Virus record (IMG/VR): IMGVR_UViG_3300037313_000284
Coordinates: 32,001 to 96,000 of that record
DNA from: a virus
Direction: 5' to 3' (one strand)
Length of the DNA: 64,000 nt
The first letter of the stretch is position 1. Every line of letters starts with the position of its first letter. Position numbers and translations under genes: made by a program. This document shows positions 10,683 to 64,000 of the stretch, in pieces. The notes under the pieces are model-generated. The model was not told where the DNA came from. It was given only the letters and a program-made list of their open reading frames with translations, and searched no databases.

Positions 10683-11771
10683 TTACAGCTTGGCCGCGTA
10701 GGAAACGGCTCGGGCGTTGTGCATCACCATCGAGACAGTTTCTTCCATGTACCAGCCCTTACCGCTAACGCCTTGCGAGTTAGCAGCGTTCAGCGGCAGC
10801 GAAGTCACCGGACCACGGTCGGTATAACCACCGAGTTGATCCGGAGCGCCGAGCGCGAACACGTCGCCCTTCGACAGCACGCGCATCTTAGGATGGCGAT
10901 AAGCGTCAGTGATCAGGCCGAGGCCGAAGATCGAGCCAATGCGGCCCGTCTGAATGATTTCCAGCTTAGTAACCGGATCGAAGAAGTTATCCGGGAACTG
11001 ACCTTGGACCGTAATATCATTCAGGATATCGGTAGCCATCAGCAGGGTCGAAGCGGTAACGCCCCAAGCTTGCAGCGCGCCAACCAGATCGCCAAGATAC
11101 AGGTTGGAGAACGCACCCGACATATAGATCGTCGAGTTAGCAGCAGCCGAACCGGAAGCGGCGCGAGCCATCGCGTAGAACGTAGCATCTTCAGTCTTGA
11201 AGATTTGTTCCAGCGCGTCGAGATACGCGTTATCCAGCAGGTCGCCGGAACCTTGGTTCAGATCGTTAGTATAGACGTACGGCGACGCCTTAATCTGGAA
11301 CTCGTCGGTTTCGATGTACTTATCGCGAACGATGGACAGCGAGGTTTGCGTCGGACCCACGGCTTTAATAGCGCGAGCGTCTTTAACGCGAACTTCGAAG
11401 CGCGGGCGCGAGCCTTGCGCCACTTCACCGCGCAGCAGCAGATTGCGCATGAAACCTTCACGGTCAGCATGCTCAGTCAGCTTACCAGCGATAGTAGCGC
11501 CGATTTCACGCCACGCGACTTGATCGTCGTCAGCGTAAGCGGCGGCCAGCATTTCACGACGGCTTTGAGCGGTAGCAGCGGTCTCTTCCGAGTCGAGCAG
11601 CGCTTGTTCCGTAATAACTTGACCACTCGACATTTGGCCGAGCAGCGACGCAATCATGCGCAGGGCATCTTGCGGATTAGCAGCGTTCAGTTCATTTTGG
11701 TTGTTGAACATGCGCGAACCACGGAACAGTGCGTTCGGCGCAACAGTGGAACCAAGAAGACGGGGCTTCAT
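10683..11771 (-). CDS. Major capsid protein (HK97 fold) with probable N-terminal propeptide
   Basis: REGFMRNLL; EFQIKASP; EQIFKTED; GRIGSIFGLGLITD; GWYMEETVSMVMHNARAVS; follows scaffold and decoration genes. Confidence 0.9.
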   Translation of the reverse strand: MKPRLLGSTVAPNALFRGSRMFNNQNELNAANPQDALRMIASLLGQMSSGQVITEQALLDSEETAATAQSRREMLAAAYADDDQVAWREIGATIAGKLTEHADREGFMRNLLLRGEVAQGSRPRFEVRVKDARAIKAVGPTQTSLSIVRDKYIETDEFQIKASPYVYTNDLNQGSGDLLDNAYLDALEQIFKTEDATFYAMARAASGSAAANSTIYMSGAFSNLYLGDLVGALQAWGVTASTLLMATDILNDITVQGQFPDNFFDPVTKLEIIQTGRIGSIFGLGLITDAYRHPKMRVLSKGDVFALGAPDQLGGYTDRGPVTSLPLNAANSQGVSGKGWYMEETVSMVMHNARAVSYAAKL

Positions 11772-11819
11772 TGTATCACCTTATAAATGGGTCGGTTACT
11801 GATTGCGAAGTTAGCGCTA

Positions 11820-12539
11820 TTACAGCACCGAAATGTCGAGACCCAGGAACGGGATATCGACAGACGGAGCACTAATAACTCGACCCTTCACGGTCGCGCC
11901 GGTGCCGCCGATTTGGAAGACGCCGTTAGCGCCAACCTTAATGGAGGAAGCCGGAGTCCAGCCAGCCCAATCGGCAGACGGATCGTAGTTGGTCGTGAAG
12001 ACCGTACCTTCTTCGATCACGCCGGTAACGCCGATAAGCGTCGGCAGGGTAGCAAACGTGGTCGGCGAGTTATCACCACCAAGTTGATACAGGTCAGCGA
12101 CAGTCGGGGCGTAGGTATAGGTAACTTCGAGTTCCTTACCCAGGTCAGCGGTGTTCACTTCAATGATGTTATTAGTGACAACACGATATTGACCGGCGGT
12201 GGGAGCACCACCAGCAGCCGTAAGCGCAACGCCCGTAGCCGTATAGATCACGCGCGGGGTACCCACGACGTTACGGTTAAGGACAATGCCCCACTGGCCC
12301 GAAGTAACCAGCACGACCTTAGCGCGGTAAACCAGCGGCGCGAGGGTAGGCGCGGTACGCTCGTTAAGAGCAACGCCAGCGAATTCTTCAGTGTTAGCAG
12401 AACCAACACCCGGCTTCACGGTCGGAACACCGTTAACGCGCACCGCGATCAGGCCAACGCCTTCTTCGATGCTAGTAACGCCAGAAGCGACGTCACGGTT
12501 ACGGGAGACGCGGATGCCGCACAGCGACAGATTAAGCAT
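11820..12539 (-). CDS. Head decoration / minor capsid protein
   Basis: Between scaffold and MCP; beta-rich, FAGVAL motif, ends SAPSVDIPFLGL. Confidence 0.65.
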   Translation of the reverse strand: MLNLSLCGIRVSRNRDVASGVTSIEEGVGLIAVRVNGVPTVKPGVGSANTEEFAGVALNERTAPTLAPLVYRAKVVLVTSGQWGIVLNRNVVGTPRVIYTATGVALTAAGGAPTAGQYRVVTNNIIEVNTADLGKELEVTYTYAPTVADLYQLGGDNSPTTFATLPTLIGVTGVIEEGTVFTTNYDPSADWAGWTPASSIKVGANGVFQIGGTGATVKGRVISAPSVDIPFLGLDISVL

Positions 12540-12586
12540 TTGTGTGCTTCCTACAATTAATAGGGTTTGTGACTAGTTGCTAACGC

Positions 12587-14464
12587 TTAACGCGGAACGA
12601 AAGCGCGAGACTGACGACCGAGTCCAGCAGTTAGTGCAGCAACGTCAATGCGGGGCTTTGCCGGAGGAGCAATAGCCGCCGTCTCAGGAGTCGGCGTAGT
12701 CGCCGGTTCAGCAGGAGCAGCAACCACCGGAACCGCGTTAATAAATTCCGCGTTACCGATAAGTTCAGCTTGCGCCGTACGCACTTCGTCGCTCGCATCC
12801 GCCAATTCCGAAGCTTTCTTGAACATGCGTTCAAGCAACGTCGGCATCGAAAGGATCATGCTAGCTTCAACGATAGCCGCCGGTTGACGGACGCCGTTGG
12901 TTTCCAGCACTTGAGCGAGTTCAGCAGCGACCGGGTTAGTAAAGTCCTTACCGAACATACCCTTCGCGATACCAAGCGCCGCCAGTTCAAGGCATTGCTT
13001 AAAGGTATCAGTGAACGAAGCACGTTCAGCAGCGATTTCGCTAGCCGCAGCCGTTTCTTGAGTCGCAACGCGTTCCGCAATAACCGTCGCGACTTTAGTC
13101 GAATGGCGCAGGATAGAGCCACCGAGTTGAGCCAGAGCAGTTTCACGGTTAGCACCGCTAATAGCAGCACGATACGTGTTACGAATTTCGGAGGGCTTAC
13201 CCCAAAGCGTTTGCACGCCAGCAGAAGCACTTTCCTTACGAAGAACCGCTACCGGTGCGTTATCTTGAATAACGTAGTAGGCAGTTTCTCCGACCGGAAC
13301 GATTTCCGCATCAGGGCTAAGTTCCGCCGGGGTAGTAGCCACATACTCAATAACCGTATCGTCGCTAGCGACGACCGTATTATCAGCAGCAGGCACACCA
13401 GCATCTGCCGCAGGCGCGTCTTCAACCGTAACGGTTTCAGCAGCGACCGGGGCTTCTTCCGCAACTTCAGCCGCAGGGGCCTCAGCAGCGGGAGTTTCAA
13501 TAACTTCAGCAGCCGGAGCGTCAGCCGGGGTATCCACGGCATCAGCGACGACAACATCAGTCACATTAGTATCAACGGGGGCGTCAGCCGCAGGAGCGTC
13601 AACCGCCGTATTGTCGGTTTGCGTTTCAGCAGGCGTAGACATATCGCTCGCCCCTTCTTTGTTTTCATCGACCGATTCAGCAGCAGGCGCGTCAGTAATA
13701 ACTTCAGCCGCTTCTTCCTCGGAGGAATCATCCTCATCGTCACCATCTTCTTCCGAATCTTCGTCCTCTTCGGACTCATCTTCGTCTTCTGACGGATCGC
13801 TCTCATCCATATCCATGACTTCTAACGAGTCACCGTCTTCACTATCTTCATCAGCAGCGAAGTCGTCATCTGAAGCCGTAATAACCGCTTCATCCGAAGT
13901 GTGTTCGTCAATAGTCCGCATAGCTAGAGCGACACTAGCGAGAAGCGCACGACGCGCTTGCGTATTGCTCATGTCGTTTTCCTCAAGCGTGTTGGGATCA
14001 ACTGTGTTAAGCTCCCCAAAGTCGAAGAAATTTGCTAACTCCGACCTAGTTTGCTCATTGGTTTTTGTATCGATAGCGATATCCATCGACACGCCCGAGT
14101 TAACATAGCTAACCGGGACGCCACACATAACACAAGCACCGGGATGCTCATCCGTGATGACGTTTGCCGTCACAGTGTCGCAATACAAATCACTAGAGCA
14201 ATTTGCACACTCACCAATCTTAATAAGTGAATCCACTTTTGGTGGAGCAACATCGTTAGGCTCAAGGTTAGAACCATCAACAGGCGAAAGCGCGCCAATG
14301 GAGCCGACCTTGTTTGACACTACAGGGGCGGTTAGCCCAGCGTCATAGGTAGCAGTAATCACACTGGAAGGTTGATGCCCTGCCGGAACAGCGACAATAA
14401 CTGAGGCCGTTTCTTTTAAAGCTAGCAAACTTCCTAGCGGTTTCTGCGTATTGCGAAGGCTCAC
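12587..14464 (-). CDS. Prohead scaffold/core protein with N-terminal Cys cluster
   Basis: CANC..C..CVMC; long acidic tract; PAA(D/E) repeats; helical C-terminus; AGGAGAGG RBS; upstream of decoration/MCP. Confidence 0.7.
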   Translation of the reverse strand: MSLRNTQKPLGSLLALKETASVIVAVPAGHQPSSVITATYDAGLTAPVVSNKVGSIGALSPVDGSNLEPNDVAPPKVDSLIKIGECANCSSDLYCDTVTANVITDEHPGACVMCGVPVSYVNSGVSMDIAIDTKTNEQTRSELANFFDFGELNTVDPNTLEENDMSNTQARRALLASVALAMRTIDEHTSDEAVITASDDDFAADEDSEDGDSLEVMDMDESDPSEDEDESEEDEDSEEDGDDEDDSSEEEAAEVITDAPAAESVDENKEGASDMSTPAETQTDNTAVDAPAADAPVDTNVTDVVVADAVDTPADAPAAEVIETPAAEAPAAEVAEEAPVAAETVTVEDAPAADAGVPAADNTVVASDDTVIEYVATTPAELSPDAEIVPVGETAYYVIQDNAPVAVLRKESASAGVQTLWGKPSEIRNTYRAAISGANRETALAQLGGSILRHSTKVATVIAERVATQETAAASEIAAERASFTDTFKQCLELAALGIAKGMFGKDFTNPVAAELAQVLETNGVRQPAAIVEASMILSMPTLLERMFKKASELADASDEVRTAQAELIGNAEFINAVPVVAAPAEPATTPTPETAAIAPPAKPRIDVAALTAGLGRQSRAFVPR

Positions 14465-14505
14465 ATTAACCTCTCCTACCGCTAGAAACCTGATTGGTTA
14501 TACGT

Positions 14506-22925: not shown

Positions 22926-23705
22926 TTAACTGTCGCCTAAGTGAAGTAGATGCTCAGGCGACACGTGTGCCGCTGCCCAAGCCGGGGTGGGGTGGACGCA
23001 ACTAAGCTCGAACCCGCGAATGAAATCGCAAATGTAGTGAGCTAAGACCGGACCGCGGTCCGGAGTATTGAAAATGCGCATCGTCCTATTATCAAGGCTA
23101 ATGTGCTCACAACCGTTTTGTGCTTTGGTTGGGCGATGCCCGCACACTGCGCATTCGTAACTACCGACCGAAGCACCCATCGAATAGTGAGAGTATTCAC
23201 CGGTTAGGATGTTATTAGCTAAAACCGGATCACGAGTACGGTCACAGCCATAAAGCGCAACCGCCTTCCACACTTTCTGATTAGTACCAGCTAGCGGAAG
23301 CATGCGGGTATCGAACACCGCGCCCTTAGCGTTAGTCGGGTCATCATTAACGTGATTGAAATGCGTAGGCCTACGCTTCCACGTTTCATAACCCAAGCAC
23401 GCTAGGTCCAGATCGAACCGACCCATGCTAGCTAGTGAGAACGCCACGCCATTACGATTAGGTAGCGCCGTAGGAAACATAATAACCGGAGTGATTACGT
23501 AATCTCTAATGTCCCTAGAGATATTGTATTCAGCGGCGGCGGCTTCCAACCAACCGGTTCCCAATTCTCGACCTAGGTTAGTATCTAGTCCCGCCGTTTC
23601 AAAAGACATTCTGGCACGCGACTCATTGCCCTTAAGAATGTCGTGCATTTCAAATGCTTGTAACCCAGGTTCCTCACAGAACCCTAGTTCGATAGACCTT
23701 TCCAC
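22926..23705 (-). CDS. Prohead maturation protease (HK97/assemblin-like)
   Basis: PNRNGVAF; HFNH; YSMG; CxxC..CEH insert; GFELSCVHPTPA; start reassigned to GTG 23705 (AGGAG RBS, TAATTT motif at 23749-23754 upstream). Confidence 0.8.
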   Translation of the reverse strand: MERSIELGFCEEPGLQAFEMHDILKGNESRARMSFETAGLDTNLGRELGTGWLEAAAAEYNISRDIRDYVITPVIMFPTALPNRNGVAFSLASMGRFDLDLACLGYETWKRRPTHFNHVNDDPTNAKGAVFDTRMLPLAGTNQKVWKAVALYGCDRTRDPVLANNILTGEYSHYSMGASVGSYECAVCGHRPTKAQNGCEHISLDNRTMRIFNTPDRGPVLAHYICDFIRGFELSCVHPTPAWAAAHVSPEHLLHLGDS

Positions 23706-23820: not shown

Positions 23821-25215
23821 CTATAACTTAAAGATCATTGAGTGCTTAGGATCATGATCTTGAGCTATCGCAGCGGCCGCTGCTATCACTTTAGGCGGTG
23901 CACTATCACGAATCATTTTAATATCGCAACGATGCCGTTCAATCTCACCGTATTCTTTGTGGTGAACAATGCAGCGCATATCTTGACCTGAGCGATAACC
24001 GCTACTAAAATGCCAAGCATCCGAGCCTGCTAGCGTGCGGAATATTTCGCACGTCACTCCATCCTTTTCTTCTACCTTGTCATGGTGCAAATGCCCTTGA
24101 TAGAAGTAGAGGAACTCAGACGAAGAGATTAACGAACGGCAATCGGTGTACATGATGCCCGGCAGATTAGCGGGCTTCGTCGTGTCACCGTGCGTAGCGC
24201 CAATTAGTACCTTACCGAATTGGAAGTACCAGAAGGCCGCAGGTGAAAGCGAAATGTGCACGCGTGGATTGTTTTTATAATACATATCCAGCGACAAAGC
24301 TAGCGCGTATGACGAACGCTTGTCGTGGTTGCCTCGCACGTTTCTAACAATAACCGTCTCATGCTTTTCAAGTGCACGTTCGATGCACCAGATCATAGCC
24401 CGCAGGCCGACTTGCATGATTTCGGTCCAGCGACCAGACACATCTAACGAATTATTAGAACGCTCAGTGCGGTTCTCTTCGTTGTCAGTGTGAAAGAAAT
24501 CTCCTAGGTTAAGGATGACACCGATCTTAGCGTTAGGTGCACTAGCAACCAACCTATCGATGGCAGTAATAGTTACTAATTCGGCGGTGTGTAGACTGAA
24601 GTCCTCACCGGCTTCCCTCGCCCATGCGTGCATGCCGAAGTGTGGGTCTCCCATAGGGTAGACGCACATAAGGTCTTCGTCGAAATTCTTTGGCGGTTTA
24701 ATAAGCGGCGACTTACTCTTGGCGCGCTTTGTCAGCCAATGCACCCACTCTTCAATCGCCTTGTCGGCTTCTTCTCTGTCAAGCTCGGATTTAACCCATT
24801 GTTGGGTAACGGAGCCTGTCGAATCGTATTGCGTAGTAACTCCCTTAACGCGATACGGTCGAGGAACACGCTTAGTCATATCGAAGTCGGGAGCATGCCC
24901 GGTAAGGGCGGCTTTCTTACTCAGCGCTTCGATAGCGTCATTCAATTCCGGCAGGGTAATACCTAGGGCGTTACACGCCGCGATTTTGGCAGATTGCAGT
25001 AACCCGAACACCGCGCGTTCGGTGATACCTAAGGCAGCGCCTGCCGCTAAGCGTGTGCCGTATTTATTAACAGCGTCAATAGCCTCACATTGACGTTCAG
25101 TAGCCCAATTCTTCAAAGTAGGGTTAATTGGCAGCCTTACCAATGTATCCTGAATTCTAAAATCTTCGTCCAAACTCTTCATCGTGCCCAACCACTCGCT
25201 TACTAAATGATGCAC
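23821..25215 (-). CDS. Calcineurin-like metallophosphoesterase with N-terminal HTH
   Basis: GDPHFG, GDFFH, GNHD, THGD, GHLHH motifs; AGAALGITERAV HTH-like. Confidence 0.85.
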   Translation of the reverse strand: MHHLVSEWLGTMKSLDEDFRIQDTLVRLPINPTLKNWATERQCEAIDAVNKYGTRLAAGAALGITERAVFGLLQSAKIAACNALGITLPELNDAIEALSKKAALTGHAPDFDMTKRVPRPYRVKGVTTQYDSTGSVTQQWVKSELDREEADKAIEEWVHWLTKRAKSKSPLIKPPKNFDEDLMCVYPMGDPHFGMHAWAREAGEDFSLHTAELVTITAIDRLVASAPNAKIGVILNLGDFFHTDNEENRTERSNNSLDVSGRWTEIMQVGLRAMIWCIERALEKHETVIVRNVRGNHDKRSSYALALSLDMYYKNNPRVHISLSPAAFWYFQFGKVLIGATHGDTTKPANLPGIMYTDCRSLISSSEFLYFYQGHLHHDKVEEKDGVTCEIFRTLAGSDAWHFSSGYRSGQDMRCIVHHKEYGEIERHRCDIKMIRDSAPPKVIAAAAAIAQDHDPKHSMIFKL

Positions 25216-25257: not shown

Positions 25258-27552
25258 CTACTTAGGCCCGCCGTGTTTATCAGCCCAATCACGCATCATC
25301 TTTGCAGTTCCGATTGCGTCTTCGGGATCATTAGTACCATAGGAAGTAGCCTCACGCCGTTCAGCGCTAGGTAGTTCCTTTTTACTAAACGTCACGATGT
25401 ATTCACCATCGACGACGTTACAGACCAAGCCAAGTTTACGAATTTCTTCCTTCACTTGTGCTTGAGTTAGTGCAGTCTCAACGGCTGCACGTTCGATGCT
25501 ATTATGATGATCGATCAATGCTTCAATCGTGTCAGTTTGGCACCGTCCGGTAGTGCCCCTAGTAACTCCAGGCACCGCACGGTCGAACCAATAACTGTAT
25601 CCGCCGTTGTCTTTAACACAGTCAATTGTCACGCTATTGCGTAAGAGGTACCTAGTACCGTGGATACCAGCAGCTAAGGCTTCTCGCGCAGACTTCTTGA
25701 AATCCTTGAGACTGAAAGGTTGTGGCGCAATTTTCACCACCGCCGTTTTCATATCTTTATAGTGATTAGCAGTCTCGCGAACAGTACCGTCAACCGATTG
25801 CTTAGCTTTCGGTTCTGACTTACCGTCGTAGCCGACCTTAACCGCCATCTTCATTAACTCATCGGAGAAGCGACGCGGCTTCTTACCGTCAAGCATCAAT
25901 GCGTCAGGATGCGCCATCGAGCCCAGCATAGAAGCGATCTTCGCTAACGCTGCGCCGATAGTAACCATGTAGTCAGCTTTGAACTTACCAAGCTTACGTT
26001 GCAGGCCGCACATATCGGCGGTGACTTCAACTTGATAACCGGTACCTTCGTTTTCGTAGGTGTAGGCGATCTTGTACTCAACAGCACCCATGCAGAAGCA
26101 ATAGGTTTTATTAGTAACCTTACCTGCCTTCACACCGACCAACTTACGAAGCTCTTCGCAGTAGTCTTGCAGGGTCTTCTTATCGCCGTCCTTACCGAGT
26201 TCGTCAGCAATGGAATCAAGCAAGCGAAGCACGCGGGTCATATCGTTGTGATTAACCTTGGCGAATTGCTTCAGCATCTTGTTGTAAACCGTCAAGAGTT
26301 TGGCTGATTCCCAACCGCTCTTGCGCTTGACCTTAACGCCCTTGTTGATCGTACCGTAGTGCAACTCCACTACGGGTTTCTTGCGACTTAAATTAATCAC
26401 GATGTGCGCGCCACCTAGGACGCACGTCTCGTTCTCTTTCTTTTTGCCGCCGAGCGCCGCCATCAGGCGTCCCGCGTTGAAAGCCTTAGGCTCTTTCGCG
26501 GTTTCCACCATGTGGTTAATAATACCGTCAACGTGCTCTTTCATGAGCGCGAGTTCGTCTTCGCTCAAGTCCTCTTCTTCGAGCGTGCACTCGCTAGGAC
26601 CGTCGTGAAGCATACCGTCGTCAGCTAGCTCGCTGCCAGACTTGAACTTCCCGATCTTGGTTCCGGTTCGTTTAGCATCTTTTATTAATGCCTTAACAAT
26701 ATCGTCGTAACCCTTAGCGTCGTTCTTCGCGCCCCAAATATCGTCGGCGTGTGTACCGTCCTGATATATTAACATGAGGCCGGGTTCGTCTTTAGTAGGC
26801 ATCTGAATCATGTACGGTAACAACAAATCGTTATTACCATATAGCATGATATAGTCGTAGTCTTCTTTCGAAGCTCTAGAGTGGAACTTGACGGTAATCT
26901 TCAGCTTAGCTTTAGCTAAGGCTGCCAAGATACCTTTTAACTTAGCCCGTGAGGCCGCCGTCTCAACCGAGGCTTCCTCTTCGGAGTCCTCATCGTCTTC
27001 GTCGGTGTTATTATCGAGTTCGTCTAGCTCGTCTTCGTGCTCAACGTCCTCTTCCTCGTCGTCTTCGTCTTTAGCCTTGCCTTTCTTTTTCTTCTTTTTA
27101 GGCTTAGCCTCTTCCTCTTCTTCCTCGTCGTCGGACTCTTCTTCGTCCGAGTTATCATCATCTTCCGCTTCCGCAGAGTCGTCATCTTCATCGGACTCTT
27201 CGTCCTCAGAATCTTCCTCTTCGTCGCCATCCTCTTCGGTGTCTTCTTCACCGTCGAACATATCGGATTCGATGATCTTAATTAGTGCGTCCGACTTGGC
27301 GTCGAGATTGTCTTCATTGAGAGCTTCAGCGAGAGCCTCAAACATACCAATGAATTCTTCTTCGTCATTGGAGTCGAAATTAGTCTCTTCACCACTCACC
27401 ACTAACGTAACGCGGCCACCGGGACGCACGATGATAGTAATAAGGCTCGAACTGTCGATGACGATGTACGCGTAGTTACCTTGTCTGTCCTTGCCGCCGG
27501 TAATGATACCTTGTTTCTCGGCGAGGGCTAAAATTTCAAGGATCACTTCCAT
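25258..27552 (-). CDS. Multi-domain acidic/basic internal head protein (candidate polyprotein)
   Basis: Five compact segments separated by VETAA, VETAK, RETAN, VETAL; long D/E tract with poly-K; start at ATG 27552 after AAGGA. Confidence 0.6.
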   Translation of the reverse strand: MEVILEILALAEKQGIITGGKDRQGNYAYIVIDSSSLITIIVRPGGRVTLVVSGEETNFDSNDEEEFIGMFEALAEALNEDNLDAKSDALIKIIESDMFDGEEDTEEDGDEEEDSEDEESDEDDDSAEAEDDDNSDEEESDDEEEEEEAKPKKKKKKGKAKDEDDEEEDVEHEDELDELDNNTDEDDEDSEEEASVETAASRAKLKGILAALAKAKLKITVKFHSRASKEDYDYIMLYGNNDLLLPYMIQMPTKDEPGLMLIYQDGTHADDIWGAKNDAKGYDDIVKALIKDAKRTGTKIGKFKSGSELADDGMLHDGPSECTLEEEDLSEDELALMKEHVDGIINHMVETAKEPKAFNAGRLMAALGGKKKENETCVLGGAHIVINLSRKKPVVELHYGTINKGVKVKRKSGWESAKLLTVYNKMLKQFAKVNHNDMTRVLRLLDSIADELGKDGDKKTLQDYCEELRKLVGVKAGKVTNKTYCFCMGAVEYKIAYTYENEGTGYQVEVTADMCGLQRKLGKFKADYMVTIGAALAKIASMLGSMAHPDALMLDGKKPRRFSDELMKMAVKVGYDGKSEPKAKQSVDGTVRETANHYKDMKTAVVKIAPQPFSLKDFKKSAREALAAGIHGTRYLLRNSVTIDCVKDNGGYSYWFDRAVPGVTRGTTGRCQTDTIEALIDHHNSIERAAVETALTQAQVKEEIRKLGLVCNVVDGEYIVTFSKKELPSAERREATSYGTNDPEDAIGTAKMMRDWADKHGGPK

Positions 27553-33938: not shown

Positions 33939-35750
33939 TTAATCTTCAATGCCAGCCTTGATCTTGGCATTGTGAGTTTCCGCAACACGCGCTAGCGCCT
34001 CGGCGATAGTCTTGTGTTGCTTGTCACGTAGTAACCTCTTACCGAGCGCGGTAGAAGGACGCATACGTTTAGTCCCGACTTCCTGATACGGCTCCATGGC
34101 TTCAGCCGTTTCGTCGTCGTAAGAACGACCGAGAATACCAACAGGTTGTGTCAAGTCACTAAACATAGCGAACTCATCACCACCCGGCGCGCCGTCACCT
34201 TCGACTAAAGGCTTCGGCATAATATCTCGGATATCTTCGATGTATTTAGCTAGGCGCTTACGGTCATCCAAGTCTTGCTTGTGGTTTTCCATAACCGCTT
34301 CGAAATCCATACCACCAGCCGCGAACAACGCGCGGATAGGTGCAGGGACATTACGCTCTTCTAGTAAGTTGAGCATTTCGATATAGGCTTGGTCACCCTC
34401 AGGCATTAGCGACTGACGCCAAGTGATCTTAGGCGTGTCGTACAGACTGACGTTAGTAATCGTGTTGGCAGCGTTGGCCGCCACTTCTAGCGCAGTGAGT
34501 TGCCCGCGTTCTTTGCCCGCGCCTTTGATCATATAGTCATTGGCTTTAGCGATCTGCGGGAAAATCTTGCGATACATCAACTGTTCGGTAACTTGGTTCC
34601 GCTCAGTCTTAATCGTTTGCAGGAACGTGGAAATCGCCACTTCCGCGTTATTAAACGTAGCGTCGCCCGATAGGAACGACTCAGACACGCCCAGCGAACG
34701 AAGCTTAAAAGCAACAGTCTGTTCGAAGCTATCCGTGATCCGCCAGAAATCAGTCGGGTTACGAACCTCGTTAGGGCTAATACCTTCACGCGTAACGACG
34801 ATAGCGCCTAGCGGGTCAGCGTCTGCGTTATTAAATAGCTCTGCGATCTGCTGCATTTCCTCAGGCGAGGCTAACCATTGGTCGCCCATACCTGCGGTGA
34901 TGTGCAGAATACCGCGTTGCCTACGGTGCGCCGCTTCAATCGTGCCACGAGTTAGCGCACGTTCGATCAAGAAGATCGGCAGGATGCGGTGCAGGATACT
35001 ATTAAACCGAGGATCGGGACCGGGGCGGTCAATCCACACCACGCTATCCATCGGAACCGGAATAACCTTCGCGCCCTTCTGTTGCAAGAATTGCGGAATG
35101 TTCTTCTTAATGTCGGCTAGACGATCATCGTTGCTGTTAATAATGTCCGAAAGGAAATCATTAAGCTGGATATCGACCACCGGGTCCATACCGAACACCG
35201 GTGAATAGATGATCTTAGAAACGGCCATACGCGAGTACGGCAACATGCTGTCGTAGGTCTTCTTAGCGCCGTTCCAGTCAAGCATGCCTAGGAACGCACC
35301 TTGCACGTCGCGTTCGATAGCCAATCGCGGCATGACCGTACGCAGCCGCATATTGTCAACGGCCTCTTCATACTTCTGAATGCGAGACTTTTCTACGCCG
35401 TGAACTGCGAAGTCGCCGTACGGGATATTAGCGCGTAGATCGATAGCGGGACCACAAATACTATCTTCACGATACAACGCGTTATAGTATTTATAAATCT
35501 CGGGAGGAGCGTTAGACGACGAGCCGCCTTTGTTAGAACTAGACGAACCGCCAATGTAATTCAGCGATAAGTCTTCGTCAGTAATCCCGCCCATTGCCGC
35601 TGACGACGTGCTAGTGCTACTAGCAGTCTCACGAAACCGCGCGATCTCATTACCGGAACGGAATTGCCCGGCACTATTAGCCATTGAAGTTTCGCGACCT
35701 GCGACGACGTTACGGCCTTGAAGCTGGTATTTACTTAGTCCGCTGAACAT
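33939..35750 (-). CDS. Portal protein
   Basis: YNALYREDSICGPAID...P; SILHRIL; LRSLGVSESFLSGDATFNNAEVA; size about 600 aa. Confidence 0.8.
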   Translation of the reverse strand: MFSGLSKYQLQGRNVVAGRETSMANSAGQFRSGNEIARFRETASSTSTSSAAMGGITDEDLSLNYIGGSSSSNKGGSSSNAPPEIYKYYNALYREDSICGPAIDLRANIPYGDFAVHGVEKSRIQKYEEAVDNMRLRTVMPRLAIERDVQGAFLGMLDWNGAKKTYDSMLPYSRMAVSKIIYSPVFGMDPVVDIQLNDFLSDIINSNDDRLADIKKNIPQFLQQKGAKVIPVPMDSVVWIDRPGPDPRFNSILHRILPIFLIERALTRGTIEAAHRRQRGILHITAGMGDQWLASPEEMQQIAELFNNADADPLGAIVVTREGISPNEVRNPTDFWRITDSFEQTVAFKLRSLGVSESFLSGDATFNNAEVAISTFLQTIKTERNQVTEQLMYRKIFPQIAKANDYMIKGAGKERGQLTALEVAANAANTITNVSLYDTPKITWRQSLMPEGDQAYIEMLNLLEERNVPAPIRALFAAGGMDFEAVMENHKQDLDDRKRLAKYIEDIRDIMPKPLVEGDGAPGGDEFAMFSDLTQPVGILGRSYDDETAEAMEPYQEVGTKRMRPSTALGKRLLRDKQHKTIAEALARVAETHNAKIKAGIED

Positions 35751-43907: not shown

Positions 43908-44086
43908 GATCCGTCCTCTGCCGGTCTAAAAGGCCAATCAGTAACGCACACATCAGGAAAAATATCCTCCGAAGTGTTGTGATCTTCGGTTTTCCAAGCA
44001 CAAACTAACTGATCGTCTTCGTAGTCTACGACAAGCATAGAAGGGCCACCACTTTTGAGCATAACTCGCGTGCCAATAGCTCTCAT
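43904..44086 (-). CDS. YodC/DUF2158-like small protein
   Basis: IGTRVMLKSGGPSMLV...CAW...F; ATGA overlap with HNH gene. Confidence 0.75.
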   Translation of the reverse strand: MRAIGTRVMLKSGGPSMLVVDYEDDQLVCAWKTEDHNTSEDIFPDVCVTDWPFRPAEDGS

Positions 44087-44544
44087 CGGTACTTCTTTCG
44101 TTTGCCTACTTTGGACGAACCGTAGCCTATTCTCTGTAGATGCGGATGCTCTAGTGCGTGGCACGGTTTACATAACGTACGTAAATTATTAGGAGTGTCG
44201 GGACCACCTTTTTCACGCCTAATAATATGATGCACGTCTAGCTTGCCGTGATTAGGCGGCCTGTACACTTTACGGCAATGTGCGTTGGTGCACGTATAGT
44301 TATCTCGATTGATGACCAGCTTTCTAGTTGCTTCCCACTCAGGACCATACGGAGGCTCTTCAGCGCGACGCCCTTCGTTGGTCGAGTGGTAGCTATTACT
44401 AGAGCTTCGCTCTTCGCGACGTTCAAAAAAGCTAGGAGGCGGACCCCCATTGCGAAGTGAACTAGTAGGCCTACTATTTGGCGGAGGACCAAAGTTAAGC
44501 CTTGTGGGTTTTGCCGCTCTAGGCGGGCCGCCACCGCCACGCAT
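44083..44544 (-). CDS. HNH endonuclease (possible packaging-associated)
   Basis: W...R..VINRD.Y.C....C...LDVHHI....GG.....NL..LCKPCH..EH. Confidence 0.85.
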   Translation of the reverse strand: MRGGGGPPRAAKPTRLNFGPPPNSRPTSSLRNGGPPPSFFERREERSSSNSYHSTNEGRRAEEPPYGPEWEATRKLVINRDNYTCTNAHCRKVYRPPNHGKLDVHHIIRREKGGPDTPNNLRTLCKPCHALEHPHLQRIGYGSSKVGKRKKYR

Positions 44545-46753: not shown

Positions 46754-47563
46754 CTATTCCATTACCAAGGCGTCGTACATCATTCCGAGGACGGTAAGGA
46801 TTTTACTATCCGAAGCACCCTCATCCAGTTGCACTTGCCGCAGCGGCTTTCCGTACGTGTCGTACTTACTATCCTTAGAAAGGAGGATTAAGTACGAACC
46901 CTCTTCACGGCGGATCAGGTAGACTTGCCTATCAGGAAACCCGTCAGGGGTACCCCGTTTGGCCCAAGCGGCGTCACCCGACTTAGGTTGACTAACAGGA
47001 ACGAATCCCATTTCGGTCAACGAACGCATGACCTTCCCAGGCAATGCTGCTTCCGAACCAATAGTAGCCGATGTTTCAATCGACTTTTTATTAGCTGGCG
47101 ATTTCTCCGCGATCTTCTCACCCAAGGCACGCCACATCGAGAGGAACTTCTCACGATCTTTGTGCCATGGGTTTACTAAATCACGCATATCACCCATGAA
47201 CGACTTGTAGAAGGCGCTCATGCGTTTGTCCTTAGCCAATTCCTTGCGACGCTTTTGCGTTTTAATGATATTGGCTATCTCGTCGTCACCATCGTCTTCT
47301 TCTTCGTCCTCATCACTGAGGCCGCCTAACAGGTCTTCTAGTAATTCGAAGATACCTGTTAGGGCCAAGACTCGGTCGTTACGGCTCATTTCCGGGTGAT
47401 CGGCCGCATCCATTTCCTCGTCGTCGTCTTCCAACGAGTTATAATACGCAGACACGAATGCGAAGAGAGTCTTCTGCGCCACCGGATCGGTTAAGAACCG
47501 GTGTAACGCTTCGACTTCTACTTGCCCGTCTTGTTCATCGTCATCGTAAGCGCCACGTGCCAT
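46754..47563 (-). CDS. Two-domain acidic head-associated protein
   Basis: Acidic helical N-domain, IETSA/SEAAL linker, compact C-domain. Confidence 0.55.
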   Translation of the reverse strand: MARGAYDDDEQDGQVEVEALHRFLTDPVAQKTLFAFVSAYYNSLEDDDEEMDAADHPEMSRNDRVLALTGIFELLEDLLGGLSDEDEEEDDGDDEIANIIKTQKRRKELAKDKRMSAFYKSFMGDMRDLVNPWHKDREKFLSMWRALGEKIAEKSPANKKSIETSATIGSEAALPGKVMRSLTEMGFVPVSQPKSGDAAWAKRGTPDGFPDRQVYLIRREEGSYLILLSKDSKYDTYGKPLRQVQLDEGASDSKILTVLGMMYDALVME

Positions 47564-47597: not shown

Positions 47598-48365
47598 CTA
47601 AGCGATCAGGGCGCGTTTACGCATCATCTGTTCAAGTTGCGCGAAGAAAGCGGGTTGCGAAGCATACAGCTTACGGAAGTAAGCAATCATGCCTTGCGCG
47701 TCACGCTTATCAAGCGCGGCGGTTTCCTTAGCTTCGTCGCTTTCGCCTTCGGCGACGAAGTGCGAGTGCGCCACGACGGCGGAGTGCGAACAAGGAACTA
47801 ACTTGCCGGTCTTAACCGACAGGATATTAAGTTGACCGTTGTCGTCGTAGGACACGACGCCCGAGTCAGCCGTGGCCGTTTCCGGGTTAGTGAACAGAGC
47901 GAATTCGCCTTGATCCACCGTGCCGATACCAGCGTCAAAGAAGTTAGCAGCGATACGGCCAACCGATTGACGGGCCGCAGCCGCGAGCAACGCCGAGATA
48001 TCCGTATCCGATTGCTTAACCAGACGACGAACGCCGGGTTGAGCCTCGACAACCTTCCACGTCGCGTCTTCATCATCCGCGAACACGTTGGCTTCAATAA
48101 CTTCACGCATCTGCGAAGCATCTTCGTACGGACGGCTTTCAGTAACCGGACGCACGTGGAAAGCCACAGCGCGAGCTTGTTCGATTTGGGTCACGTTGCG
48201 AACCGTACCCGGCACGACTTCGATCTTACCTTCGAACTTGTCGCGAATCTTGTTCGCGTAGTCTTGCGCGGTTTCCACCTTGGACGTTTCCGCAACCACG
48301 GAGGCCACGTTTCCGCCAATCATTTCGAAGGTCTGAATGTTAGCAACAACAATCTTGTTAGACAT
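47598..48365 (-). CDS. Putative head structural protein
   Basis: NVFADDEDATWKV; three ETA motifs; AAGGA RBS. Confidence 0.55.
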   Translation of the reverse strand: MSNKIVVANIQTFEMIGGNVASVVAETSKVETAQDYANKIRDKFEGKIEVVPGTVRNVTQIEQARAVAFHVRPVTESRPYEDASQMREVIEANVFADDEDATWKVVEAQPGVRRLVKQSDTDISALLAAAARQSVGRIAANFFDAGIGTVDQGEFALFTNPETATADSGVVSYDDNGQLNILSVKTGKLVPCSHSAVVAHSHFVAEGESDEAKETAALDKRDAQGMIAYFRKLYASQPAFFAQLEQMMRKRALIA

Positions 48366-48409: not shown

Positions 48410-49525
48410 CTATAAACTGACGCCGTTATCAAGTAAGCCGCCCAAGTTGCCGCGAGCTAGCATGAAGGCGGATGGCCGAATGTACGATCTACCATTATGA
48501 GCAAAGTTATTGTTCTGCCCACCGTAGCTAACCGTAACATGCAGATGGCCGATGGAAGAGCGAGAAAGCATCCCGCCTTTGATGCTGGTTAAGTTACTAT
48601 CTAACCAGTTGCCTAGTTCATCCATTTTGGTTTGGATGAATTGTGTCCTATCCACATTAACTTGGATCGATCCACCTTGGAAATCGAAGGTGCTAAGACC
48701 TTCGGCCAAGTAGAGGCGATTAAGCATTTCGTGGAGTGCTGCAACTCTAAGCGCATGCGTTAGGGGTTGCGGCATGGTGTCGGGGCTAAAGCTAGTCTGT
48801 TGAGGCGGATGGATATTAACCCGATCCATGCCTCGGTATAAGCAATCGATTAACTCCGTCTCGTGGAAACTGAAATGCCCTAACCAACGCGTCATCTGCG
48901 ATTGGTCGATGAACATTTTGAAGCTCGACAGCATGCTAGCCGTCTTCGTGGAGATAACAAACGCTTGGCGGTACTCGTGTTGCGGTACGCCACCGATTAG
49001 GTAACGCCAGTGCGCCACGTATTCGCCAACGCCAATAACTGGAACCTGCCATTCCACAGTAGCACGAATGCTACCGGGGCTTTCAGGAGTTTGCGTCGAA
49101 ACGCTATCCGTTACTGCGTTGGTAGACGCGATCTGCACGGTACCTGCTAGAGTTAGTACCTCGCACTGAATGTCAGTAGCGCCTAACGGCAGGTAGATTT
49201 CATCCATTAACGAGACGTTGACCACGCCAAAACCCGCAGGGGCAGGACGTTGTACACCTTCGTCATAGGACACGACTTGGAAGTCTTGTTCCGCCGTACC
49301 GTTAGAGTGCGTCCAAATCAGCTTGTAATAACCCGAAGTCGGGGTGCAAATCGGAGCAACTGCGGGAATGCTAAGAGTAGCACGCCACGTGTTGGCATCG
49401 ATCTTCACCGCCGCTGTAATCGGGATACTAAGTCCGTTGAAGTCTTTAGCTACGACCGTGACCGCATCTTCCGCAGGATCAAAATCGCGCTCGACTACCG
49501 TGTTACTGCCGGGGTAGAGGATCAT
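48410..49525 (-). CDS. Head-tail adaptor (neck) protein with N-terminal Ig-like domains
   Basis: ELIDCL.RGMD.VN.HP...L.RLYLAE....FDFQG.S..VNVDR. Confidence 0.6.
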   Translation of the reverse strand: MILYPGSNTVVERDFDPAEDAVTVVAKDFNGLSIPITAAVKIDANTWRATLSIPAVAPICTPTSGYYKLIWTHSNGTAEQDFQVVSYDEGVQRPAPAGFGVVNVSLMDEIYLPLGATDIQCEVLTLAGTVQIASTNAVTDSVSTQTPESPGSIRATVEWQVPVIGVGEYVAHWRYLIGGVPQHEYRQAFVISTKTASMLSSFKMFIDQSQMTRWLGHFSFHETELIDCLYRGMDRVNIHPPQQTSFSPDTMPQPLTHALRVAALHEMLNRLYLAEGLSTFDFQGGSIQVNVDRTQFIQTKMDELGNWLDSNLTSIKGGMLSRSSIGHLHVTVSYGGQNNNFAHNGRSYIRPSAFMLARGNLGGLLDNGVSL

Positions 49526-61800: not shown

Positions 61801-61963
61801 AAGTAACGGACTCGTTAGCGGTTAGCGCGTGAGTTAGCGTAGTTTCGTCAACTACGACGACCGTATTCGCCATCGTAACCACAGGGGCGGGTAACGGGTT
61901 ATACGTTAATAACGCCGCTACGCTGGTGCTCATGAAGCACCCGACTTTAGATAGTTGAGGCAT
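58847..61963 (-). CDS. Large fibre/adhesin protein (cadherin-like, helical core, FN3, Ig-like, CBM-like)
   Basis: GGADAANFQI...DFENPVD.GGNNVYDV.VRAT cadherin-like; YQVRYS.D...W...Y.VQ.R..NA.GWS.WS FN3; alternative start 61933. Confidence 0.7.
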   Translation of the reverse strand: MPQLSKVGCFMSTSVAALLTYNPLPAPVVTMANTVVVVDETTLTHALTANESVTWAIVGGADAANFQIVGSNLVWQGSPKDFENPVDVGGNNVYDVIVRATSVATGLTSPNFAIAVTVIASVTPTSLQSSITHGDVTFYFSVPVLVGRYADGQPFAISDRVFNITQITPDGVNTASGNFTMTPPGGSATLMTGQSYWANGVMIDPWMVYGSEAQGFDGMLAVWADGGGIGSASSTTYTHTLNVDPATKSSPIAIAIGNEKSVVKSIRRSGLTTPQVGQWRIFDGYGVLHIVSSVPPNGAIAPSPSATSKSTRYTVSMANRAALGNGFTLPSGAPDLATVTATGAEYFTALQPWWIHDAEKRRRFMVDKISDSGYSRDFGITWSKWLTAVLAAGQSAPQAAWITALTFGANNLDIYDHRSFRGAAGAGQWNGHKQFVQLFGHAYWEKVSGLMTKCLNIKSNPTHQPFYVPVEFVGIATNYPGNHDVYFRTFYPEDVGIPHWGTQTPSQPPPIASNFDSQIDADYLGTSCGAGVPEMLNIGCFRNGPNGWDGWSVLAGGNTWATAGQLGAAVAFVDRYMTFLTMDMYETGTATFLSAQYQALYTLLRNTLNLMALPVWEGRPECITPFKTNAGSDKAATLGILTATATGFAWNLTNVGHTTPGYPILEYQVRYSIDQMTWTTITNAPASGSVSNLPTRKYYVQFRRRNAFGWSTWSFNFPKKLGGQERLTVTPTNAASGAVVNLEAPKQFVRRYGGWDGPDFIEAGSAIDLNQNTQIYTGYGLWSGNISGTFTFEHQRDTVAISGAAATARYDLEFADLNTSHRTKVTVGGFEVLSNTITVPARPAQPAGQIIKTGFEASFKLYYNEVLTSAQNESIQQITGGTWTPMNVVHNPDLVKTKTVGEDTVVVAQGVIYGDKGQPVVTNTGRFPTLRMNLAARQPLTVGVTYRATIKLAMGATDQNTTNTTSLQLGASRSANAITSEYLNTSIPSTDSPKPYDHPSFTFTALSTELWIAVGTSSSATGAGGGDPTINEVEIVAV

Positions 61964-62354
61964 TTAGACTTATCCCATCGTCTGGAGGGATGACACCAAC
62001 GAGTAACCATTGTTGTCGAGGTATGTCAGGCAACGTTAGTGTCTGATTGGCGAATTCGTGCAGGCTATCACCACAATAGATGATCATGCCGTTAGTAATA
62101 AAGTAGTGGCACCTACCATGGATGCCGTCTTCATCGTTGGGTCCTCCCCAACTAATATTCATAGACGGTTGAAAGGTAGGCGAGTCATGGTTCAGGTTAT
62201 AAGACCACCTAGCTCCGGTATGCGTCGGCTGGTCTACGTAAAAGGGATGCAGGTGTTTGCATGCGGGGCACCAATGCGCGTAAACCGCGTTATCGCCCCA
62301 TTCGTAATGGCGCATTATTTTAGCGCTAAGCCACTGCGCTTTGACTTGGCCCAT
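61947..62354 (-). CDS. DUF6527-like Cys/His-rich protein
   Basis: HWCPACKHLH...W..N....PTF.PS...CHYFITNG.I.YC.D..H..A.QT..LP; TAATTT at 62384-62389. Confidence 0.65.
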   Translation of the reverse strand: MGQVKAQWLSAKIMRHYEWGDNAVYAHWCPACKHLHPFYVDQPTHTGARWSYNLNHDSPTFQPSMNISWGGPNDEDGIHGRCHYFITNGMIIYCGDSLHEFANQTLTLPDIPRQQWLLVGVIPPDDGISLNASTI

Positions 62355-62410
62355 AGAACGCGGCTCCTAATGTTCACTTTAATAAATTAGCGCTATACCG
62401 ATTAAACAAA

Positions 62411-62443
62411 GAAAAAGCCCCCGGAGCCTAGGCTCCGGGGGCT
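62411..62443 (-). terminator. Intrinsic terminator (perfect palindrome)
   Basis: agcccccggagcct|aggctccgggggct with T-run on minus strand. Confidence 0.75.
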
Positions 62444-62447
62444 GGTG

Positions 62448-62633
62448 TTAGTCTTTAGGTTTAGTGACGTTGGGTTTTGCACGAACCAATTCTGACATTG
62501 GCGATTCTTCTAGTTGCCGCATGATGCGTTCGCGTTCAGCGTCGGACAACTCCGGCGCGGGTTCGAACCCAAATGAGAACGGTTCGTCGTCTCCCTCGTC
62601 GTCGACTAACATATTGAATACTCGATGATGCAA
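62448..62633 (-). CDS. Small acidic hypothetical protein
   Basis: Between TAATTT motif (62658-62663) and terminator; start uncertain. Confidence 0.35.
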   Translation of the reverse strand: MHHRVFNMLVDDEGDDEPFSFGFEPAPELSDAERERIMRQLEESPMSELVRAKPNVTKPKD

Positions 62634-62697
62634 CGGCTTCTCGCTGAGCCTGACTGTAAATTAATCGAAGTGTCAGGGCTCCGGAGCCAACTCTTAA

Positions 62698-64000
62698 TTA
62701 GTTGGGTAGTGCAGTCTCGGCCCACTTCTTACGCAACACGTCCGCGTATTCGTGAGTGATGTAGAGAGGGAATTCAGGCGTAGGCAACTTACTAACATCG
62801 ATATCGCCGCAGTTGTAAGACAGCGTGATATGCGGGTTAAAAGTTGGGTACTTCCACACGGCCCCTAAATCTTGCGAGAGGTCAAAACGTTCTTGCATGA
62901 TTGGAGAGTCGTACTTAAGCACCAGTACCTTGTGGTCGCCGTCTTCCCAAACTTCCAGCTTGAAAGTATCAGGACTTACTAATAATCCACTACCCGTCAG
63001 CATATAATCGACCGGCTCCCAAGGTTCGCTTAGGGGCTTTTCGCTATAGACCAACGTAGAGTGCATCTTAGTAAAATCGGTAATCGGATTTTGAATCAAG
63101 TTGACCGCAATCCAATGCTCGATTTGACGTTGCGTGCGCTTACTAAACTTCACACCAACGTAGACGCCTTCTGCCGCGACTTCGAATTGGCTAAAATCAA
63201 ACGAAGCCTCTTCGTCGTCCTCGTGTCCACTCTCAGGCAAGATGCCCGCTAGTGAAGCTAGCTTCTCGACATTGTGATAGAGTTTAATACGGGTCGTTTT
63301 CTTTCCTTGTAGAAACTGCCAGAACGCTTTTTGGCCTGGAAGACCCGCGCCCCAATCTTTAGTAACGTACGCAGCGAGCTTACCCGGAAATGGGGTAGCT
63401 TCTTTGCCGCTAGCCACAAGATAAGGACGAATGCGATTAGCAATATTTGCCAAATCACGCGCAGCGCCTTTACGCTGTTTCGCCTTAATCTTTTTAGTGA
63501 TTTCAGCAAGTTCGTGTGCGAAGACATAGTTCAGGAACGCCGCTATGGGTTTCGCCTCGCGCTTACGCACCAGACCTATGTTATTAGTAGTAGCTGTTTC
63601 GACCGGAACGATCATCAGCTTCTTAGTCTTCTCATTCACACCGAGCTTAAGGTTGAACGTCGTCTTACCATCCGCTTCTCTAACCTTCGGCGCTTTGACC
63701 GAACGTTCGGGAGCTTCTGGTTTATCCGGCGCTTTTGCCTTAGGCGGCTCTTCGTCCTTTTTAGTAGGCTTAGAGCTACGTGCTGCGTCTTCTTCCTCTA
63801 GGATTCTAAAGAACGCGTCGAATGCTTCCTTGCGGGTAGCAAACTGTTCGTCCTCACCAACCCCATCGCGGTTGAAGATAATAAACCACTTGCCGGTTTT
63901 GATCACCTTATCGATGATGCCGCCGTTTTCCGGGTCTTTATTAGTAGCCGCGCCGCCGGGCGTTGCTTCGGTCCAACCGGGAGGTAGATCAGATTTAGGT
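62698..64000 (-). CDS. acb1: Multi-domain protein (5'-truncated) with C-terminal anti-CBASS Acb1 (2H phosphoesterase) domain
   Basis: Frame is open to the window edge; C-terminal GVYVGVKFS...NP....MHSTLVYS...LEVW....VLVL..DS....R......GA.....F.PHITLSY...EY...L...W closely follows T4 Acb1 (gp57B) as I recall it, with both HxT motifs. Confidence 0.85.
   Translation of the reverse strand, partial: PKSDLPPGWTEATPGGAATNKDPENGGIIDKVIKTGKWFIIFNRDGVGEDEQFATRKEAFDAFFRILEEEDAARSSKPTKKDEEPPKAKAPDKPEAPERSVKAPKVREADGKTTFNLKLGVNEKTKKLMIVPVETATTNNIGLVRKREAKPIAAFLNYVFAHELAEITKKIKAKQRKGAARDLANIANRIRPYLVASGKEATPFPGKLAAYVTKDWGAGLPGQKAFWQFLQGKKTTRIKLYHNVEKLASLAGILPESGHEDDEEASFDFSQFEVAAEGVYVGVKFSKRTQRQIEHWIAVNLIQNPITDFTKMHSTLVYSEKPLSEPWEPVDYMLTGSGLLVSPDTFKLEVWEDGDHKVLVLKYDSPIMQERFDLSQDLGAVWKYPTFNPHITLSYNCGDIDVSKLPTPEFPLYITHEYADVLRKKWAETALPN

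What the first reader, a model, noticed from the sequence alone, without database searches (positions are those of the whole stretch)
10683..64000. Candidate protease-processed capsid cargo system marked by an E-[T/V/I]-A motif
Seen: E-T-A (variants EVA, EIA, EEA) recurs in head-associated genes. It ends the apparent propeptides of the MCP (SEETAA, about aa 63-65), protease (FETAG), portal (RETAS, LEVAA) and scaffold (KETAS, RETAL, QETAA, PETAA). It also occurs in 47598 (VETAQ, PETAT, KETAA), 49886 (LETAN), 36066 (LETAE), the SNF2 ATPase (LEIAA), the GNAT (VETAA), the 25258 protein (four sites) and the Acb1 fusion (VETAT, FEVAA, AETAL). I did not see it in sheath, tubes, tape measure or fibres. 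Known: jumbo-phage prohead proteases cleave many internal head proteins at short motifs, and the related herpesvirus assemblins cut after Ala in x-x-A|S/A; the scaffold also has ITAS, VVAS and VEAS. Inference: the protease at 22926..23705 cuts after E-x-A and releases enzymes and anti-defence domains packaged as tagged polyproteins and injected with the DNA.
Basis: partly seen in the sequence, partly recalled or inferred. Interest (0 to 1): 0.92.

Follow-up and report, generated by a model that had tools for sequence, protein, structure and literature searches.

The report
Glu-x-Ala cutting code of phage head protease
The head proteins of this uncultured 141-kb phage, plus three extra proteins (one ending in an anti-CBASS Acb1 nuclease), are studded with a conserved Glu-Thr-Ala (Glu-x-Ala) signal.

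Summary
ETA is the most over-represented of all 8000 tripeptides in the six annotation-defined head proteins (9 vs 1.5 expected), and E-x-A is first of 400 gapped pairs. Classical T4, phiKZ and herpes-type motifs are at background. The motif marks the boundary between the N-terminal extension and the conserved core in the MCP, portal and protease. In the MCP family it recurs in the same 23-residue segment (ETA 12/52, E-x-A 41/52 homologues, beyond all shuffles). It is invariant in homologues of the 47598 protein, and in the 25258 protein most sites sit at the joints where modules are swapped or lost between relatives. The protease has the T4 gp21 fold (Z 11.7). Best reading: a lineage-specific E-x-A recognition code of the prohead protease, probably cut after Ala. 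Per-protein tests single out scaffold, portal, 25258, 47598 and the 1249-aa SprT-Acb1 protein. SNF2, 'GNAT', 36066 and 49886 are at chance level. Packaging, cleavage and injection are all unmeasured, and the 25258 modules match no known enzyme. This is a new variant of a known kind. Earlier notes of this scan (unchecked) report analogous lineage-specific codes in other phages.

The parts
22926..23705 (-). Prohead (head-maturation) serine protease, T4 gp21 / assemblin fold, with a CxxC...CxH zinc-knuckle insertion. The long ORF runs to 23777, but relatives start at its residue 25. Own N-terminal site SF-ETA-G lies at 23592-23600.
   Evidence: phrog_18299 E 1e-56; AF2 pLDDT 84; 5jbl Foldseek prob 0.99-1; VIA Z 11.7, VZV 6.0, HCMV 5.3; invariant H142, S199, E257, C209, C212, C223, H225; start and SFETAG conserved in L010 and G001
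10683..11771 (-). Major capsid protein (362 aa) with a ~65-residue N-terminal extension ending in E63-T64-A65 (nt 11577-11585).
   Evidence: phrog_2522; profile hit to phage G gp27, PDB 6wkk, from profile position ~66; gp27 is only 282 aa in full; segment test ETA 12/52, ExA 41/52
11820..12539 (-). Small virion structural protein between scaffold and MCP; conserved E-F-A at about aa 52; no E-[TVIL]-A.
   Evidence: phrog_16710 E 1e-31; synteny in L003, L001 and RHEph12
12587..14464 (-). Scaffold-like acidic protein (625 aa) with 11 E-[TVIL]-A sites (5 ETA).
   Evidence: Position next to the MCP; acidic tract; 11 vs 2.9, P 0.0005; E18-x-A20, ETA393, ETA441, E476-x-A478 and ELA515 invariant in 3 sequences of 56% identity. 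The scaffold role itself is inferred.
33939..35750 (-). Portal protein; N-terminal extension with EIA35 and ETA41 (nt 35622-35630), followed by a Ser/Gly-rich linker before the conserved core.
   Evidence: phrog_16240 E 3e-114, core from aa 84; 5 vs 0.96, P 0.002; RHEph12 portal has ETA then a Gly/Ser-rich linker before its core
25258..27552 (-). Modular 'bead' protein of unknown function: conserved N-domain plus Asp/Glu tract, then modules separated by ETA sites (aa 203, 356, 599, 698 in 770-aa numbering).
   Evidence: ETA 4 vs 0.41; the homologue P0203 keeps E-x-A at 203, 356 and 599 (KTA at 698) while segments 207-340 and 602-697 are non-homologous; G001 joins module B to D through F-EIA-M; syntenic with the protease in L010 and G001
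47598..48365 (-). 255-aa protein next to the head-tail connector gene, with three conserved ETA sites (aa 31, 162, 214).
   Evidence: A3: E31, A33, E214 and A216 invariant in 16 homologues down to 41% identity; site 1 also present in RHEph12 at 26% identity; site 3 in a disordered linker
48410..49525 (-). Head-tail connector protein; part of the head set used for the statistics; no E-[TVIL]-A site.
   Evidence: phrog_17327
62698..64000 (-). C-terminal part of a 1249-aa polyvalent protein (ORF continues to window position 66447): N-terminal HEMVH SprT-like zincin, unassigned middle, Acb1 (2H) domain at aa 1093-1244; 8 E-[TVIL]-A sites, one (F-EVA-A 1088-1092) abutting the Acb1 domain.
   Evidence: Pfam Acb1 E 4e-31; SprT-like 25.1 bits, just under the cut-off; 8 vs 1.76, P 0.0003; MHST and PHIT present

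Best explanation
E-x-A, with x mostly Thr and otherwise Val/Ile/Leu, is the substrate-recognition code of this phage lineage's prohead protease. The protease is a serine protease of the T4 gp21 / herpesvirus-assemblin fold. Inside the assembled prohead it would trim the N-terminal extensions of the major capsid protein (about 65 residues), the portal (about 43) and itself. It would also dice the acidic scaffold, and cut the 47598 protein and the modular 25258 protein at their joints. The 1249-aa SprT-Acb1 polyvalent protein carries the same excess of sites and is probably a further substrate. The scissile bond is most likely after Ala (P3 Glu, P2 variable, P1 Ala). Shown here: the motif's enrichment, its restriction to these proteins, its conservation, its position at boundaries, and the protease fold. 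Inferred: cleavage itself, the bond cut, packaging, and delivery into the host.
For: ETA is rank 1/8000 and ExA rank 1/400 in six annotation-defined head proteins; the rest of the window is at background. [LIV]xE, [AGS]xE, [LIV]xA and KxA are at background. In the per-protein ranking of 52 proteins, only the Acb1 giant, scaffold, portal, 25258 and 47598 have P<=0.03; none of 78 proteins outside the window does. In the MCP family, ETA occurs in 12/52 and ExA in 41/52 in one 23-aa segment, vs shuffle means of 1.8 and 18.5; ETA density is 1.26 vs 0.02 per 100 aa. The MCP site coincides with the start of the extension-less phage G MCP. In the 47598 family E and A are invariant at two sites and the middle residue varies T/V/I/Q/L. 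25258 sites lie at junctions of swapped or lost modules in three lineages. Scaffold sites are conserved. Relatives L010 and G001 reproduce the pattern. Protease fold: gp21 Z 11.7. Codon usage excludes a DNA motif. Background: T4-type and phiKZ-type proteases use three-residue x-x-E codes and process many head proteins (PMC10052503).
Against: There is no experimental cleavage data for this lineage. In the distant relative RHEph12 the enrichment is weak (ETA 4 vs 1.4; ExA rank 10/400) and its MCP lacks the site at the aligned place. Site 2 of 47598 lies in a beta-hairpin of a folded barrel and site 1 at a loop/helix junction, so some conserved ETAs may be structural. PETAA in the scaffold and VETAL in 25258 are not fully conserved. 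Flanking residues do not separate 'substrate' sites from background sites. All characterised gp21-type proteases cut after Glu, not Ala. The Acb1 giant has its own zincin-like peptidase, which could process it instead (PMC5512222), and no homologue was found to test conservation.
Confidence: 0.7

Rival explanations
1. Same protease code, but the cut is after the Glu (P1 = Glu as in T4 and phiKZ/SPN3US), with Thr-Ala occupying P1'-P2'.
For: All characterised gp21-fold phage proteases cut C-terminal to Glu (PMC10052503). The protease's best structural match is gp21. The phage G alignment cannot distinguish a mature N-terminus at T64 from one at A66.
Against: No preference at the would-be P3 (two residues before Glu), and [LIV]xE and [AGS]xE are at background. 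The fixed residues are E and A with a variable middle, which fits P3-x-P1. In protease homologues the aligned site often keeps T/V/I-A-G/S when E is lost (a gappy alignment).
Confidence: 0.18
2. E-x-A is a conserved structural or assembly-contact motif of head proteins (for example a helix cap or a capsid-targeting/binding element) and is not cleaved.
For: Two of the three invariant sites in 47598 lie in ordered parts of the model. E and A are helix-favouring, and scaffolds are helical.
Against: The same tripeptide recurs in unrelated folds and in disordered linkers (47598 site 3; portal before a Ser-rich linker; after the acidic tract of 25258). It drifts in position within the MCP segment while being retained. 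It marks junctions of swapped modules.
Confidence: 0.08
3. One reading: all listed proteins, including SNF2, the 42656 'GNAT', 36066 and 49886, are tagged cargo released by cleavage at their E-x-A sites.
For: Sites exist. SNF2-type giants of the P1 DarB kind are known or predicted capsid passengers (PMC5512222), so packaging is possible for reasons other than the motif.
Against: These proteins have single sites at the rate chance predicts; SNF2 has 2 vs 3.1 and its RHEph12 homologue 0 vs 2.5.
Confidence: 0.1
4. Chance or compositional artefact of Ala/Glu/Thr-rich proteins.
For: The motif was chosen post hoc. Genome-wide ETA is only rank 26/8000. The head-set P of 2.7e-5 does not survive a strict 8000-fold correction on its own.
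Against: Independent replication across MCP homologues, the 47598 family, and L010, G001 and L003. The ETA sites lie outside the low-complexity tracts.
Confidence: 0.03

Closest known systems
T4 gp21 prohead protease with its L/I-x-E code and its substrates (gp23 propeptide, scaffold gp22, internal proteins IPI-III and Alt)
   Same: Same fold (Z 11.7). One protease trims the MCP N-terminus (about 65 residues, as in gp23), degrades the scaffold and processes extra head proteins through a three-residue code.
   Different: No sequence-level match to solved gp21 or to a Pfam protease model. A zinc-knuckle insertion is present. The motif is E-x-A, [LIV]-x-E is not enriched, and the cut is probably after Ala. 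No short T4-like capsid-targeting leader was seen.
phiKZ gp175 / SPN3US gp245 giant-phage prohead proteases (A/S/G-x-E) and their ejection proteins with long propeptides (PMC10052503)
   Same: Many head proteins are processed, including the portal and the protease itself; propeptides carry several sites.
   Different: Different lineage and a different, almost mirror-image code (E-x-A vs A-x-E). Here everything is inferred from sequence.
Herpesvirus assemblin, (V/L/I)-x-A|S maturation and release sites (own knowledge; fold hits)
   Same: Related fold (Z 5-6). P1 Ala with a small residue after it, in a P3-x-P1 format.
   Different: P3 is Glu rather than aliphatic, and [LIV]-x-A is not enriched. 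This is a phage, with a His/Ser pair plus an invariant Glu rather than a demonstrated Ser-His-His triad.
Polyvalent proteins of phages and conjugative elements (Iyer et al. 2017, PMC5512222)
   Same: The 1249-aa protein combines a zincin-like peptidase module, unassigned modules and a 2H-phosphoesterase (Acb1) module. The SNF2 giant resembles the DarB type. These proteins are predicted to travel in the capsid.
   Different: That paper proposes processing mainly by the embedded zincin peptidase. Here the joints carry the putative prohead-protease code. The SprT-like hit is just under Pfam's threshold.

Membership tests
gp21/assemblin-fold prohead serine proteases | Assemblin-like beta-barrel fold | tested here: met
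   5jbl: Foldseek prob 0.99-1.0, TM 0.52 by target; VIA Z 11.7, rmsd 3.2, 150/165 aligned; VZV Z 6.0, HCMV Z 5.3
gp21/assemblin-fold prohead serine proteases | Conserved catalytic Ser and His | tested here: inconclusive
   H142 and S199 (283-aa numbering) are invariant in 43 homologues. Their superposition on gp21's catalytic residues was not examined.
gp21/assemblin-fold prohead serine proteases | Sequence-profile membership (Pfam / PHROG) | tested here: inconclusive
   phrog_18299 'head maturation protease' E 1e-56, but no Pfam protease family even at E<=10 and no PDB sequence hit
T4-type / phiKZ-type cleavage code | Cleavage after Glu in [LI]-x-E or [AGS]-x-E, with the motif over-represented in head proteins | tested here: not met
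   [LIV]xE 34 vs 32.3; [AGS]xE 45 vs 42.2; AxE 18 vs 20.3 in head proteins. The actual bond cut is not testable here.
Protease-processed capsid cargo (T4 IPs/Alt, SPN3US ejection proteins) | Presence in the virion and removal of a propeptide | not testable with these tools
   Needs virion proteomics. Only motif enrichment and junction placement are available.
Polyvalent proteins (PMC5512222) | Several unrelated domains in one phage polypeptide, typically with a zincin-like peptidase | tested here: inconclusive
   The Acb1 domain is clear (E 4e-31). The SprT-like hit scores 25.1 bits vs the 25.6 cut-off, with HEMVH present. The middle ~950 aa are unassigned.
Acb1 (anti-CBASS 2H phosphodiesterase) | Pfam PF23474 match and two H-x-T motifs | tested here: met
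   108 bits vs cut-off 27, aa 1093-1244; MHST and PHIT present. Activity not tested.
HK97-fold major capsid protein with cleavable N-terminal extension | HK97-fold core preceded by an extension absent from extension-less relatives | tested here: met
   The profile matches phage G gp27 (6wkk) E 9e-28 from position ~66; gp27 is 282 aa in full. Removal of the extension is not tested.

The most novel reading that the evidence does not exclude
A gp21-fold prohead protease whose specificity has switched from the Glu-P1 codes of all characterised phage relatives to a P3-Glu / P1-Ala code. It dices modular, rapidly reshuffled cargo polyproteins inside the capsid. One of them would release a ready-made Acb1 anti-CBASS nuclease that enters the host together with the DNA, before any phage gene is expressed.
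Probability: 0.3. Interest if true: 0.75.

Novelty: new variant of a known kind. Interest (0 to 1): 0.6.

Why it matters
Prohead-protease codes are known experimentally for only a few phage groups, and all of those end in Glu. A sequence-derived E-x-A code for a large uncultured lineage (761 protease homologues in the representative library) would allow three things. Mature capsid, portal and scaffold forms could be predicted. Capsid passengers could be recognised from sequence. And one could test whether anti-defence enzymes such as Acb1 are delivered pre-made. The module swapping at the motif-marked joints of the 25258 protein suggests that protease sites act as recombination-tolerant linkers for shuffling cargo.

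Tried and rejected
- Megablast of the MCP/scaffold region against phage genomes gave no match.
- PDB sequence search and Pfam for the protease gave nothing meaningful.
- The phage G capsid paper (PMC7316594 and its DOI) is not held. Papers that are held give no phage G or phiRSL1 cleavage sites, and no held paper describes an E-x-A phage code.
- The RHEph12 proteome-wide ETA test was not significant (23 vs 16.9). The FYH/FYQ excess there lies mostly in wrong-strand ORFs of my crude gene caller and was set aside.
- Searches for relatives failed for the protease and portal (viral contigs; metagenomes) and for the Acb1 giant.
G001 holds no portal.
- ESM Atlas on module B of 25258 gave no usable hit.
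- Fold search of the 47598 model gave only generic SH3/Tudor-like matches, Z about 7.
- Column statistics at the protease's own site were too gappy to use.
- An extended consensus (upstream acidity, P1') did not separate putative from background sites.
- Complex prediction was not used, because enzyme-substrate pairs are outside its stated use.
Full report
**What the window is.** The window is bases 32001-96000 of a 140,864-bp virus record. It encodes the structural module of an uncultured myovirus. The identified genes are a sheath and two tail-tube genes, an MCP, a head-maturation protease and a portal, a connector, an NAD ligase and a 1910-aa SNF2 protein. The MCP is 32-38% identical to those of jumbo phages such as Rhizobium RHEph12, Ralstonia phiRSL1, Erwinia Yoloswag and Dickeya JA11. 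Metagenomic relatives reach 93% identity.

Composition-preserving shuffles give 23 ETA vs 7.4 expected in the window. Genome-wide, ETA is only rank 26 of 8000 tripeptides, so I partitioned the signal.
- In six proteins chosen by annotation alone (MCP, its small neighbour, scaffold, protease, portal, connector), ETA is the top tripeptide (9 vs 1.5) and E-x-A is the top gapped pair (39 vs 20.4).
- In 25258+47598, ETA is 7 vs 0.56.
- In the remaining 16,480 residues, ETA is 7 vs 5.2, rank 1400.
- The T4 ([LIV]xE), phiKZ ([AGS]xE), herpes-like ([LIV]xA) and KxA patterns are all at background.
- Ranking the 52 proteins of at least 100 aa for E-[TVIL]-A gives five outliers: the full-length Acb1 protein (8 vs 1.8, P 0.0003), scaffold (11 vs 2.9), portal (5 vs 1.0), 25258 (6 vs 1.9) and 47598 (3 vs 0.7). 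SNF2 has 2 vs 3.1, and the 42656, 36066 and 49886 proteins have one site each, as expected by chance.
- None of the 78 larger proteins elsewhere in the genome stands out.
- Synonymous codon use at the sites is ordinary, so the signal is in the peptide and not the DNA.

**Conservation: the MCP.** Across 52 MCP homologues, the 23-residue segment before the conserved core contains ETA in 12 (shuffle mean 1.8, maximum 7) and E-x-A in 41 (18.5, maximum 30). ETA is about 60 times denser there than in the rest of the protein. The motif shifts by a few residues between lineages while the surrounding sequence is not conserved. The MCP profile matches the solved phage G capsid protein from profile position about 66. 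That protein is only 282 aa in full. So ETA(63-65)|A66 sits exactly where an extension-less relative begins.

**Conservation: the other proteins.**
- The portal has ETA at residue 41, followed by a Ser-rich linker and then the core. RHEph12's portal has the same layout.
- The protease's own SF-ETA-G is identical in two relatives.
- In the 47598 family (16 sequences, down to 41% identity), E and A of two sites are invariant and the middle residue varies T/V/I/Q/L. The third site is kept in 14 of 16. Site 1 persists even in RHEph12 at 26% identity.
- In the scaffold, five E-x-A sites are invariant among three sequences of 56% identity.
- In the 25258 protein, the homologue P0203 keeps E-x-A at 203, 356 and 599, while the segments after 203 and 599 are replaced by unrelated sequence. 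A third lineage (G001) lacks one module and joins its neighbours through F-EIA-M. At the fourth site (698) P0203 has KTA instead of ETA.

**The enzyme.** The protease model (pLDDT 84) matches T4 gp21 with Z 11.7 and the herpesvirus assemblins with Z 5-6. H142, S199 and E257 and a zinc knuckle are invariant. Its family has 761 representatives.

**Mechanism.** Established knowledge: T4 and phiKZ/SPN3US proteases recognise three-residue codes ending in Glu, and they process the MCP, portal, scaffold, themselves and internal proteins (PMC10052503). My inference is that this lineage uses E-x-A. Because E and A are fixed and the middle residue is free, and because no preference exists two residues before E, a P3-x-P1 reading with the cut after Ala is more likely (about 60%) than a cut after Glu.

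**Caveats.**
- In the 47598 model, only site 3 is in a disordered linker. Site 2 lies in a hairpin of an SH3-like barrel.
- RHEph12 shows only weak enrichment.
- Individual sites cannot be told from chance ones.

**The cargo claim.** This claim is supported for 25258 (function unknown) and for 47598. It is statistically supported for the 1249-aa SprT-Acb1 protein, whose F-EVA-A abuts the Acb1 domain. That protein fits the polyvalent-protein class, for which self-processing by the zincin module is the published proposal (PMC5512222). No homologue was found to test conservation. SNF2 and the other enzymes gain no support from the motif.

**Verdict.** This is a real, head-specific, conserved motif. 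It is most likely a new specificity variant of a well-known maturation system. Cleavage, packaging and injection remain to be measured. Earlier notes of this scan report analogous inferred codes (K-x-A, h-x-S-x-S, LN[SC]S) in other phages; I did not check them.

Noticed in passing
window 22926-23705 (homologues P0053, P0056, P0063, P0077 and others): About twenty of the 150 best protease homologues are 430-770 aa long, with the match split at query residue ~141-144, next to the invariant His142. This is an intein-sized insertion at the active site.
   Followed up: no
protease homologues, N-termini (alignment A2): Many homologues carry a conserved ETADC / ADC motif about 55 residues before the catalytic core. 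The window's protein has ELGFC there.
   Followed up: no
L005-L008 (Rhizobium phage RHEph12): FYH (19 vs 1.8) and FYQ (15 vs 2.5) are hugely over-represented, mostly in wrong-strand ORFs of my crude gene caller. This is probably a repeated DNA element rather than a peptide motif.
   Followed up: partly
window 11820-12539 (-): The true gene between scaffold and MCP is this minus-strand virion structural protein (phrog_16710), not the longer plus-strand ORF 11787-12560. It has a conserved NTE-EFA-G at about aa 52.
   Followed up: partly
   Followed up: partly
window 4509-5273 and 44083-44544 (-): HNH endonuclease genes, one of them lodged between the two tail-tube genes.
   Followed up: no
window 46754-47563 (-): An acidic 269-aa protein next to 47598 has EIA directly after a ten-residue Asp/Glu run, plus a second ELA. 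Enrichment is borderline (P 0.08), so it may be another head-core protein.
   Followed up: no
L011 (G001) 1318-2109 vs window 23821-25215: In the relative G001 the 25258 homologue is followed directly by the protease, without the SbcD-like exonuclease gene that separates them in the window and in L010.
   Followed up: no
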